Positions 19,576 through 19,864 of a stretch of 28,152 bases of DNA are shown here, piece by piece. Under the pieces are notes generated by a model, which worked only from the letters and a program-made list of their open reading frames with translations, ran no database searches and was not told the DNA's origin. Position numbers and translations under genes: made by a program. The first letter of the stretch is position 1; each line of letters opens with the position of its first letter. The DNA is from a virus (Duplodnaviria > Heunggongvirae > Uroviricota > Caudoviricetes), in IMG/VR virus record IMGVR_UViG_638341086_000001, positions 1-28,152 of that record. One strand, given 5' to 3'.

Positions 19576-19659
19576 CCCGCCCCGGGGGGGATCATCCGGC
19601 GAAAAAAAACGATCGCCCTGGACACCGCCCCCCGTCTCATGCAGAGAAAAAATTCCTGT

Positions 19660-19795
19660 TTCAGGCCAGTTAACATGTTAACTGGCTGCCCGGGCATTTT
19701 TTCGGTTTTTATCTTTATTATTCAGTTTGTTGTGCGAAAAAAATGTTAACTGGCTTTTTCAGCAAATGTTAACCAGGCAGCAGTTAACATTTGCG
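19660..19795. repeat. cos-like region: four GTTAAC-centred palindromic repeats
   Basis: 22-bp perfect palindrome GCCAGTTAACATGTTAACTGGC (19665-19686); ATGTTAACTGGC (19743-19754); inverted pair CAAATGTTAAC...GTTAACATTTG (19763-19792); flanked by C/G-rich and T-rich tracts. Confidence 0.45.
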
Positions 19796-19864
19796 GCATG
19801 AGACGCCGGGAAAAATGGGCTGAACCATACCCGGCTGAGTGCGTTATGGACCCGGGAGGAGGCT

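What the first reader, a model, noticed from the sequence alone, without database searches (positions are those of the whole stretch)
19578..19860. Cluster of GTTAAC-centred palindromes between HNH endonuclease and small terminase (likely cos/terminase recognition region)
Seen: a 22-bp perfect palindrome GCCAGTTAACATGTTAACTGGC plus three further ATGTTAAC/GTTAACAT copies within 130 bp, flanked by G/C-rich and T-rich tracts, in the non-coding gap upstream of TerS. Established: HNH-associated HK97/P27-type packaging systems place cos immediately upstream of the small terminase. Inference: terminase small-subunit binding sites and the cos cleavage region.
Basis: partly seen in the sequence, partly recalled or inferred. 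Interest (0 to 1): 0.4.

Follow-up and report, generated by a model that had tools for sequence, protein, structure and literature searches.

The report
Phage cos site with terminase-binding repeats
This is the DNA-packaging start site (cos) of a Shiga-toxin-type lambdoid prophage: the published cut site of a near-identical phage lies 30 bp upstream of the palindrome, and the GTTAAC repeats are most likely small-terminase docking sites, which makes it an ordinary kind of element with well-resolved anatomy.

Summary
A perfect 22-bp palindrome lies at 19665-19686, and all five ATGTTAAC copies in the 28-kb window fall within 19669-19790.

Phage Lys8385Vzw is about 94% identical over the aligned cos-terS stretch. 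Its genome record begins at the window equivalent of 19636 and ends at 19635. Its paper reports 3' cohesive ends from PhageTerm, with cos = CGCCCCCCCT. The window equivalent is CGCCCCCCGT at 19626-19635.

The repeats are 12-bp units (ATGTTAACTGGC) arranged as a lambda-cosB-like array between the cut and terS.

- Among 133 unique relatives this non-coding stretch is 3.5-4 times less diverse than flanking third-codon positions.
- In relatives all five units change together, from GTTAAC to GTTTAY or GTTACAC.
- The change follows residues 32, 35 and 38 of the predicted TerS recognition helix. It does not follow TerL or HNH.
- Satellite-like islands keep the same cut site but carry their own TerS and a different repeat.

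TerS binding is inferred, not shown. The TerS is a Terminase_2 protein, not HK97 gp1-like. TerL in this window is a pseudogene, so this cos could only be used in trans.

Verdict: a new member of a known kind, of moderate interest.

The parts
19210..19575 (+). HNH endonuclease gene (gp74-like packaging accessory nuclease)
   Evidence: PF01844 HNH, E = 7e-7. Annotated HNH endonuclease in homologous prophages.
19584..19594 (+). G7 run followed by ATCA; upstream (right-end) part of the cos core
   Evidence: The G-run is invariant in six diverged long-spacer relatives (A3) and present in all short-spacer relatives. HK97 has G9+ATCA 42 nt before its right end, against 45 nt here.
19611..19625 (+). 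Conserved left flank of the cut, GATCGCCCTGGACAC
   Evidence: GGACACC is invariant across relatives whose TerS is only 35-48% identical, in several Enterobacterales genera.
19626..19635 (+). cosN: the 10-nt 3' cohesive-end sequence CGCCCCCCGT
   Evidence: The Lys8385Vzw record ends at the equivalent of 19635 and restarts at 19636. PhageTerm: 3' cos, CGCCCCCCCT (PMC7946995). Natural polymorphism at 19629 and 19634. The identical CGCCCCCCGT occurs in the island loci L166 and L167.
19636..19656 (+). A-tract box CTCATGCAGAGAAAAAATTCC at +1 to +21 from the cut
   Evidence: Nearly invariant in 50 close relatives and conserved in all distant relatives and islands whatever their TerS type. It is the analogue of the A-tract-containing HK97 TerS site at +15 to +29 (PMC11331095), but it does not follow TerS type.
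19665..19686 (.). Palindrome P1: two inverted 12-bp units (sites a and b), GCCAGTTAACA|TGTTAACTGGC
   Evidence: ATGTTAAC at 19675 lies 39 nt after the overhang, the same spacing as the terS start ATGTTAAC in short-spacer relatives. P1 changes to GGTGGTTAACATGTTAACCACC (L165) or TATAAACATGTTTATA (L168) with palindromy kept.
19697..19743 (+). AT-rich tract with phased T-runs and an A7 run; contains the conserved block ATTCAGTTTGTTG (19720-19732)
   Evidence: 'ATTCA-N4-TGTT' is invariant in six diverged relatives (A3). No IHF consensus at one mismatch or fewer. The bending role is inferred.
19743..19754 (+). Site c: a lone 12-bp unit, ATGTTAACTGGC
   Evidence: Identical to site b (D4). In relatives it carries the same flank as that locus's P1: CACC in L165, and TTTATACCC in L168 and L345.
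19762..19794 (.). Palindrome P2: sites d (+) and e (-), GCAAATGTTAAC-CAGGCAGCA-GTTAACATTTGC
   Evidence: 12-nt perfect arms with a 9-nt spacer (I6). The same geometry occurs with GTTTAC/GTAAAC arms in L168, L170 and L345.
19796..19810 (-). Inverted partial copy of the right side of cosN (GCATGAGACGCCGGG is the reverse complement of CCCGGCGTCTCATGC)
   Evidence: I3: 15 nt, 87% complementary to 19628-19642, of which 10 bp are perfect. Function unknown; possibly a relic of an inverted duplication.
19854..19862 (+). Shine-Dalgarno sequence GGGAGGAGG of terS
   Evidence: Read directly from the sequence, just upstream of GTG 19865. Conserved in relatives.
19865..20428 (+). Small terminase (TerS), Terminase_2 family, with an N-terminal helix-turn-helix
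   Evidence: PF03592, E = 1.4e-8. AlphaFold2 model: residues 1-56 have pLDDT above 92, with helices 19-25 and 33-41 forming the helix-turn-helix. Weak matches to the SF6 TerS DNA-binding domain, 2CMP and 4ZC3.
20425..22085 (+). Large terminase (TerL), a pseudogene in this copy
   Evidence: PF03354 and PF20441 hits on the fragments. Compared with an intact 1662-bp TerL there is a 1-bp deletion after 20921 and a premature stop at 21495-21497.

Best explanation
The interval 19584-19864 is the cos site of an HNH-assisted, 3'-overhang (HK97-like) DNA-packaging module of a Stx-phage-type lambdoid prophage. Terminase (TerL with the HNH protein) cuts at cosN, 19626-19635, leaving a 10-nt 3' overhang. 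Packaging then proceeds rightwards into terS and the head genes. The five 12-bp ATGTTAAC(TGGC) units are a cosB-like array: palindrome P1 at +30 to +51 from the cut, a lone unit c, and palindrome P2. They are separated by an intrinsically bendable T/A-tract. The N-terminal helix-turn-helix domains of the oligomeric Terminase_2-type TerS bind this array and position TerL and HNH on cosN. Status of each step: shown by published data on a near-identical phage, the position and polarity of the ends; shown here, the anatomy, the conservation, and the co-variation of the motif with the TerS recognition helix; inferred, physical TerS binding, DNA bending, and any role for the A-tract box. Because TerL is broken in this copy, this cos can only be used in trans by a sibling prophage's terminase.
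For: Ends: the Lys8385Vzw record boundaries fall at 19635|19636, and PhageTerm gives a 3' cos of CGCCCCCCCT (PMC7946995). The region is 95-99% identical to BP-4795, 2851, 1717, YYZ-2008 and many Stx1a/Stx2c phages. Gene context is HNH, TerS, TerL. HK97 shares the G-run+ATCA about 42-45 nt before the end and an overhang starting CGCC. Selection: among 133 unique relatives, mean pairwise diversity of non-coding 19636-19864 is 0.028. This compares with 0.10-0.11 at third codon positions of HNH and terS, and 0.08 in 19576-19635. The GTTAAC cores are invariant in 50 close relatives apart from one substitution at 19679 in a single sequence. Co-variation across 260 loci carrying this cos core: TerS ..KTAR[V/I]KGS.. 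(about 200 loci) has 4-6 GTTAAC and essentially no GTTTAY (at most one in any locus). TerS ..KSARCKGS.. (L168, L169, L345, plus the partial L170) has 5 GTTTAY/RTAAAC and no GTTAAC, at the same positions, orientations and spacings. TerS ..KTARVKGW.. (islands) has 2-4 GTTACAC. In L165 the 4-nt flanks of a, b and c all change together to CACC. Independence: TerL of L168 (GTTTAY) and L171 (GTTAAC) is 96.8% identical. TerL of L165 (GTTAAC) and L170 (GTTTAY) is 95.4% identical. L168 and L170 share the motif with TerL only 85.6% identical. HNH identity does not follow the motif. Residues 32, 35 and 38 lie at the N-cap and on one face of the predicted recognition helix 33-41. Islands L166, L167 and L172 keep the same cosN and A-tract box but have their own TerS and different repeats, partly direct repeats.
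Against: There is no binding or footprint data for this TerS family at this site. The co-variation rests on few independent events: two TerL-clade contrasts plus the island class. Concerted change could also come from gene conversion between repeats. Short-spacer relatives manage with only a P1-like element overlapping the terS start, so the extra three units are not essential to this cos type. In HK97, the only structurally characterised HNH-cos system, TerS binds a single 15-bp A-tract site at +15 to +29, and a comparable A-tract box exists here. No IHF consensus is present. The ends were mapped in a relative, not in this prophage, whose overhang differs by one base and whose TerL is a pseudogene.
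Confidence: 0.7

Rival explanations
1. TerS recognises only the conserved A-tract box next to the cut (19636-19656), as HK97 TerS does at +15 to +29. The GTTAAC array is then not the TerS site and has some accessory or unrelated role.
For: The HK97 minimal TerS site is a 15-bp A-tract element 15 bp from the cut (PMC11331095). The window has an invariant A6 at +12 to +17, conserved in every relative. Short-spacer relatives have little room for anything else.
Against: The box does not vary with TerS type, even in islands with a 52%-identical TerS, so it cannot carry TerS specificity. The window's TerS is PF03592 with a helix-turn-helix, while HK97 gp1 has no such hit. The concerted motif change that follows the helix-turn-helix is left unexplained.
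Confidence: 0.12
2. The palindromes act as nucleic-acid structures: hairpins in the late transcript (a terminator or attenuator between the lysis/HNH genes and the head genes), or cruciforms, rather than protein sites.
For: The P1 and P2 hairpins dominate the centroid RNA fold. A weak terminator-like site lies at 19690-19705. T-runs follow P1 and site c in several relatives. Palindromy is preserved through changes on both arms.
Against: The fold energy is not exceptional: z = -1.59, and 12 of 200 shuffles fold as well. There is no Rfam match. The lone unit c changes in concert with P1. The island versions are largely direct repeats (AAAGTTACAC twice in L166), which cannot form hairpins. The motif follows a protein's recognition helix.
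Confidence: 0.08
3. The repeats are binding sites for another protein: the HNH endonuclease, TerL, the upstream DUF3950/YlcI-family protein (18941-19168, minus strand), or a host factor.
For: All three phage proteins are encoded nearby. The DUF3950 protein looks to me like a ribbon-helix-helix protein from its sequence (my own reading, not tested).
Against: TerL is 95-97% identical between loci with different motifs, and HNH identity does not follow the motif. L168 has the full array but no DUF3950 gene was called nearby, while lambda carries an 88%-identical DUF3950 segment next to an unrelated cos. The islands have neither HNH nor TerL next to their arrays. A host factor would not explain lineage-specific motif switches.
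Confidence: 0.06
4. The units are non-functional relics of duplications of the ancestral cos-terS start segment, whose start codon context is ATGTTAAC.
For: Site b sits exactly where terS starts (ATGTTAACAGCG, Met-Leu-Thr) in short-spacer relatives, 39 nt after the overhang. An inverted partial copy of the right side of cosN adjoins site e (I3).
Against: The array is 3.5-4 times less diverse than neighbouring third codon positions. All units switch motif together while keeping their geometry. This origin story is compatible with present function as TerS sites, because the ancestral start region is itself a near-palindrome, TGTAAACATGTTAACA.
Confidence: 0.04

Closest known systems
HK97 cos with gp74 HNH, gp1 TerS and gp2 TerL (10-nt 3' overhang)
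   Same: Gene order HNH - cos - terS - terL. A 10-nt 3' overhang beginning CGCC. A G-run+ATCA 42-45 nt before the right end. An A/T-tract 12-30 bp inside the left end.
   Different: HK97 cos is 49 nt from terS and 319 nt from the HNH stop, whereas here it is 229 nt and 50 nt. HK97 TerS has no Pfam match, whereas here it is PF03592 with a helix-turn-helix. HK97 has a single 15-bp TerS site and no repeat array.
Phage lambda cosB (R3-I1-R2-R1 sites for gpNu1 between cosN and Nu1)
   Same: Several copies of a short motif in both orientations, separated by a bend region. They lie between the cut site and the terS start, on the side packaged first, within about 200 bp (lambda layout as summarised in PMC6092414, and from my own knowledge).
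   Different: Lambda has a 12-nt 5' overhang, a gpNu1-family TerS, an IHF site (none here at one mismatch or fewer) and no HNH protein. There is no sequence similarity.
Stx-converting phage Lys8385Vzw (MT225100.1) and relatives BP-4795, 2851, 1717, YYZ-2008
   Same: The same cos region at 95-99% identity, including all five units. The ends were determined by PhageTerm.
   Different: The overhang is CGCCCCCCCT against CGCCCCCCGT here. Their TerL is intact. The papers I read report the overhang only and do not describe the repeat array.
SF6/SPP1-type small terminase (Terminase_2) recognising pac through an N-terminal helix-turn-helix
   Same: The same Pfam family and the same predicted helix-turn-helix position.
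   Different: Those are headful (pac) phages. Here the family is paired with a cos/HNH nuclease system.

Membership tests
HK97-type HNH-assisted cos packaging site | HNH endonuclease gene directly upstream of cos and the terminase genes | tested here: met
   PF01844 at 19210-19575, then TerS, then TerL. Same order in HK97.
HK97-type HNH-assisted cos packaging site | Virion ends in the HNH-terS gap with a 10-nt 3' overhang | tested here: met
   Met for the near-identical phage Lys8385Vzw: record boundaries plus PhageTerm (PMC7946995). Not testable for this prophage itself.
HK97-type HNH-assisted cos packaging site | TerL of the TerL_ATPase/TerL_nuclease type next to terS | tested here: met
   PF03354 and PF20441, but the gene is a pseudogene in this copy.
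HK97-type HNH-assisted cos packaging site | TerS homologous to HK97 gp1, with a single A-tract site at +15 to +29 | tested here: not met
   The window's TerS is PF03592, while HK97 gp1 gives no Pfam hit. An A-tract box exists, but it does not vary with TerS type.
Lambda-type cosB | Several TerS-site repeats in both orientations between cosN and terS | tested here: met
   Five 12-bp units, oriented - + + + -, at 19665-19790.
Lambda-type cosB | IHF site between the repeats | tested here: not met
   No WATCAANNNNTTR at one mismatch or fewer in 19576-19864. Only phased T/A tracts and a conserved ATTCA-N4-TGTT block.
Lambda-type cosB | gpNu1-family TerS and a 12-nt 5' overhang | tested here: not met
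   TerS is PF03592. The overhang is 3' and 10 nt.
Lambda-type cosB | Physical binding of TerS to the repeats | not testable with these tools
   Only indirect evidence: the motif co-varies with the TerS recognition helix.
Terminase_2 (SF6/SPP1-like) small terminase | Pfam PF03592 match above the gathering score, and an N-terminal helix-turn-helix | tested here: met
   35.9 bits against a cut-off of 26.1. The AlphaFold2 model has helices 19-25 and 33-41 at pLDDT above 92. PDB sequence matches to 2CMP and 4ZC3 are only E = 0.2-0.4.
Intrinsic terminator | G+C-rich stem immediately followed by a T-run, with exceptional stability | tested here: inconclusive
   One weak 5-bp candidate at 19690-19705. 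In the window P1 is AT-rich and 10 nt from the T-run. Fold z = -1.59.

The most novel reading that the evidence does not exclude
The array reveals a readable specificity code for cos recognition in a large family of HNH-type Enterobacterales phages. Three positions on the TerS recognition helix appear to select the repeat: T32/V35/S38 with GTTAAC, S32/C35/S38 with GTTTAY, and T32/V35/W38 with GTTACAC. TerS-encoding PICI-like islands of E. coli would exploit this by combining the helper-type cosN with a private TerS and a private repeat array. That would be a cos-phage counterpart of the TerS switch used by SaPIs of pac phages, and it would point to Stx-type HNH-cos prophages as the unidentified helpers of those islands.
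Probability: 0.35. Interest if true: 0.55.

Novelty: new member of a known kind. Interest (0 to 1): 0.36.

Why it matters
This packaging module is carried by many Stx1a, Stx2a and Stx2c phages. Similar sequence is found in about 3,800 of 5,426 complete E. coli genomes, often in several copies per genome. Knowing exactly where cosN and the likely TerS sites lie explains how defective copies, such as this one with a dead TerL, could still be packaged in trans. It gives a sequence test for which prophages and satellites can share a terminase. It also offers a compact natural experiment, three motif classes matched to three recognition-helix variants, for studying how Terminase_2-type small terminases read DNA in a cos system. 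That question has so far been resolved structurally only for the unrelated HK97 TerS.

Tried and rejected
(1) I scanned viral contigs for the variant palindrome TATAAACATGTTTATA, hoping to find more GTTTAY-type loci. It returned 91 hits, none with the cos core, so this was a dead end because the pattern is AT-rich. The metagenome scan with P0021 added only one more such locus, L345.

(2) IHF consensus scan: there is no site in the cos region at one mismatch or fewer, and window-wide counts are at chance level.

(3) Rfam at a permissive threshold gave nothing. The RNA fold z-score is not significant.

(4) Kala et al. 2014 (PMC4000778) is not held. HK97 facts were taken from PMC11331095 and from the HK97 record instead.

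(5) The PDB sequence search with TerS gave only sub-threshold hits to the SF6 TerS DNA-binding domain. They are used only as weak support.

(6) DUF3950, HNH and TerL were considered as the binder of the repeats and rejected.

(7) I considered that the 24-codon ORF starting at the ancestral ATG (19675-19749) might be a gene. It has no Shine-Dalgarno sequence and I did not pursue it.

(8) The SfI/SfV cos (TGCCCGCCCC) is a related type but a different sequence, so it gives no direct mapping to this window.

Full report
**Observation**

- GCCAGTTAACA|TGTTAACTGGC is a perfect 22-bp palindrome at 19665-19686. By my arithmetic, about 0.007 such palindromes are expected by chance in 28 kb.
- All five ATGTTAAC octamers of the 28,152-bp window lie within 19669-19790. 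Shuffles give 0.8 for the whole window.
- GTTAAC is also over-represented: 15 copies against 4.8 expected, with 0 of 100 shuffles reaching 15.
- The repeat is really a 12-bp unit. Sites a (19665-76, minus strand), b (19675-86) and c (19743-54) are ATGTTAACTGGC. Site d (19766-77) is ATGTTAACCAGG. Site e (19779-90, minus strand) is ATGTTAACTGCT.
- Sites a and b form palindrome P1. Sites d and e form a second palindrome, P2, with 12-nt perfect arms and a 9-nt spacer (19762-19794).
- Homopolymer tracts surround them: G7 at 19584-90, A8 at 19601-08, A6 at 19647-52, T6 and T5 at 19697-19710, and A7 at 19737-43.

**Gene context**

- 19210-19575 is an HNH endonuclease (PF01844).
- 19865-20428 is a Terminase_2 small terminase (PF03592), preceded by a strong Shine-Dalgarno sequence at 19854-62.
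- 20425-22085 is a TerL (PF03354 and PF20441) split into three ORFs.
- Compared with the intact TerL of a Stx2c prophage that is 99.4% identical over the query 19100-20500 (O157:H7 strain 4276), the window has a 1-bp deletion after 20921 and a premature stop at 21495-97. This prophage cannot make its own large terminase.
- The region is 95-99% identical to a large set of Stx1a, Stx2a and Stx2c phages, including BP-4795, 2851, 1717 and YYZ-2008. Similar sequence occurs in about 3,800 of 5,426 complete E. coli genomes, with up to 13 places per genome.

**Where the cut is**

Phage Lys8385Vzw (MT225100.1) was sequenced from induced particles.
- Its record starts at the base equivalent to window 19636 and ends at the base equivalent to 19635.
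- Its paper states that PhageTerm classed it as a cos phage with 3' cohesive ends, with the cos sequence CGCCCCCCCT at the genome end (PMC7946995).
- The window has CGCCCCCCGT at 19626-19635. The G/C polymorphism at 19634 is common among relatives.
The terS side is the left end, which is packaged first.
The caveat is that the mapping was done on a relative, not on this prophage.

**Relation to HK97**

- HK97 has the same gene order (HNH gp74, cos, gp1, gp2) and a 10-nt 3' overhang.
- Its right end carries G9+ATCA 42 nt before the terminus, against G7+ATCA 45 nt here. Both overhangs begin CGCC.
- The layout differs. HK97 cos is 49 nt from terS, whereas here it is 229 nt.
- HK97 gp1 has no Pfam match, while this TerS is PF03592.
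- HK97 TerS binds one 15-bp A-tract element at +15 to +29 (PMC11331095).
- The window has a comparable, strongly conserved A-tract box at +1 to +21 (19636-19656).

**Comparative anatomy**

Relatives with 35-48% identical TerS occur in Atlantibacter, Kluyvera, Enterobacter, Citrobacter, Erwinia, Pantoea and other genera.
- In these relatives the core '...GGGGGGG...GATCGCCCTGGACACCGCGCCCCCTCTCACGCACAGAAAAAATTCC' is conserved. It is followed directly by a Shine-Dalgarno sequence and the terS start ATGTTAACAGCG.
- The distance from the overhang to that ATGTTAAC is 39 nt, exactly as for site b in the window.
- The start region there is itself a near-palindrome: TGTAAACATGTTAACA, or GTTAACGTGTTAAC in three loci.
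- P1 is therefore ancestral. The E. coli lineages have about 180-190 extra base pairs carrying three more units, and their terS now starts GTGCTGAC.
- An inverted partial copy of the right side of cosN (19796-19810) next to site e hints at an origin by duplication.

**Selection**

Among 133 unique relatives spanning HNH to terS:

| Segment | Mean pairwise diversity |
|---|---|
| Non-coding 19636-19864 | 0.028 |
| Units c to P2 | 0.022 |
| P1 | 0.027 |
| Third codon positions of HNH and terS | 0.10-0.11 |
| 19576-19635 | 0.08 |
| TerS helix-turn-helix codons | 0.020 |

The TerS helix-turn-helix codons are about as conserved as the array.

**Co-variation**

This is the main new evidence.
- Across 260 loci that carry this cos core, the repeat motif is uniform within a locus and differs between TerS classes (sequences).

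| TerS class | Loci | Repeat in the spacer |
|---|---|---|
| ..KTAR[V/I]KGS.. | about 200 | 4-6 GTTAAC |
| ..KSARCKGS.. | L168, L169, L345, partial L170 | five GTTTAY/RTAAAC, no GTTAAC, same positions, orientations and spacings |
| ..KTARVKGW.. | six island loci | 2-4 GTTACAC |

- In the KSARCKGS class, P1 is TATAAACATGTTTATA, site c is ATGTTTATACCC, and P2 is AATGTTTAC-N9-GTAAACATT.
- In L165 the outer 4 nt of sites a, b and c all read CACC instead of TGGC.
- The switch is independent of the other packaging proteins. TerL of L168 and L171 is 96.8% identical, and TerL of L165 and L170 is 95.4% identical, yet the motifs differ within each pair. L168 and L170 share a motif although their TerL is only 85.6% identical. 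HNH identity does not follow the motif.
- In an AlphaFold2 model whose N-terminal domain has pLDDT above 92, the helix-turn-helix is formed by helices 19-25 and 33-41. Residues 32, 35 and 38 are therefore the N-cap and one face of the recognition helix.

**Islands**

- L166 and L167 have a primase-type gene, small ORFs, TerS, and a capsid-family protein.
- L172 has AlpA followed by TerS.
- All three carry the same cosN. L166 and L167 even have the window's exact CGCCCCCCGT. They also carry the A-tract box, their own TerS, and AAAGTTACAC repeats, which are partly direct repeats.
- A conserved cut site combined with a variable, TerS-matched array is what a split into cosN (TerL/HNH) and cosB (TerS) predicts.
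- TerS-encoding E. coli PICIs are known, but that study did not identify a helper phage for them (PMC6092414).

**Rival explanations**

- RNA or DNA hairpins. The P1 and P2 hairpins appear in the centroid fold. However, the energy is unexceptional (z = -1.59), there is no Rfam match, the lone unit c co-varies with P1, and the island repeats are direct.
- Another protein. TerL, HNH and the DUF3950 protein are excluded by the contrasts above and.
- HK97-like recognition of the A-tract box alone. That box does not vary with TerS type, so it cannot carry TerS specificity. It may still contribute to cutting or to bending.
- Neutral relics of duplication. This is contradicted by the conservation and by the concerted switches.
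- No IHF consensus is present. Bending is more likely intrinsic, through the phased T/A tracts and the conserved ATTCA-N4-TGTT block at 19720-19732.

**Verdict**

- The cut lies at 19626-19635, not in the palindromes.
- The palindromes form a lambda-cosB-like array for a Terminase_2-type TerS.
- This copy is a cis-acting site in a prophage whose TerL is dead.

The overhang of this phage group is already published. I did not find the repeat array, or its match to the TerS recognition helix, described in the papers I could read. It is a new member of a known kind and of moderate interest.

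Noticed in passing
window 20425-22085: TerL is a pseudogene. Compared with an intact 1662-bp homologue it has a 1-bp deletion after 20921 (frameshift) and a premature stop at 21495-21497. The cos site next to it is intact.
   Followed up: yes
L166 1380-1500, L167 1380-1500, L172 1270-1500: PICI-like E. coli islands carry the same cosN (CGCCCCCCGT or CGCGCCCCCT) as the Stx-type phages, but with their own TerS (52-53% identical) and AAAGTTACAC repeats. Their gene content is a primase or AlpA, TerS, and in L166/L167 a capsid-family protein that recalls SaPIbov5 Ccm. 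This suggests that HNH-cos Stx-type phages are their helpers.
   Followed up: partly
L426 913-2371 (LC567822.1), equivalent to window ~19586: In PPompW prophages an IS110-family ISEc20 abuts the G-run of the cos core. The lysis genes and HNH that normally lie between the Q/tRNA region and cos are absent, while cos and terS are kept.
   Followed up: partly
window 19675-19749: The ancestral terS start codon inside P1 opens a 24-codon ORF, MLTGCPGIFSVFIFIIQFVVRKKC, which ends in the TAA of site c. It has no Shine-Dalgarno sequence and is probably not expressed.
   Followed up: no
window 18941-19168 (minus strand): A DUF3950/YlcI-YnfO family gene. Its 5' part (19100-19168) is 88% identical at the DNA level to the right end of phage lambda (48235-48303), just before lambda's unrelated cos. 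By eye the protein looks like a ribbon-helix-helix protein.
   Followed up: partly
L096, L098, L100, L090, L094 (about 60-130 nt upstream of terS) and HK97 L004 620-680: Some short-spacer relatives and HK97 share an AT-rich module with repeated AATGAT/ATCATT (for example TTTGAAATCATTTCA...GAATGATA) just upstream of the G-run. It may be a site on the termination side (cosQ-like) or a host-factor site. The window lacks it.
   Followed up: no
L085-L103, about 30 nt upstream of the overhang: Short-spacer relatives have a GTAAACAT upstream of cosN as well as GTAAACATGTTAAC downstream, so TerS-like motifs flank the cut. The window has an A8 tract at the upstream position instead.
   Followed up: no
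window 1-18586 versus 18587-28152: Only the part from 18587 onwards is colinear with the best-matching Stx2c prophage (96% identity). Apart from one 198-bp segment (16417-16614), the early and lysis region upstream does not match that prophage, so there is a mosaic junction near 18587. Window 25823-26254 also aligns at several offsets to that prophage, which suggests an internal repeat.
   Followed up: no
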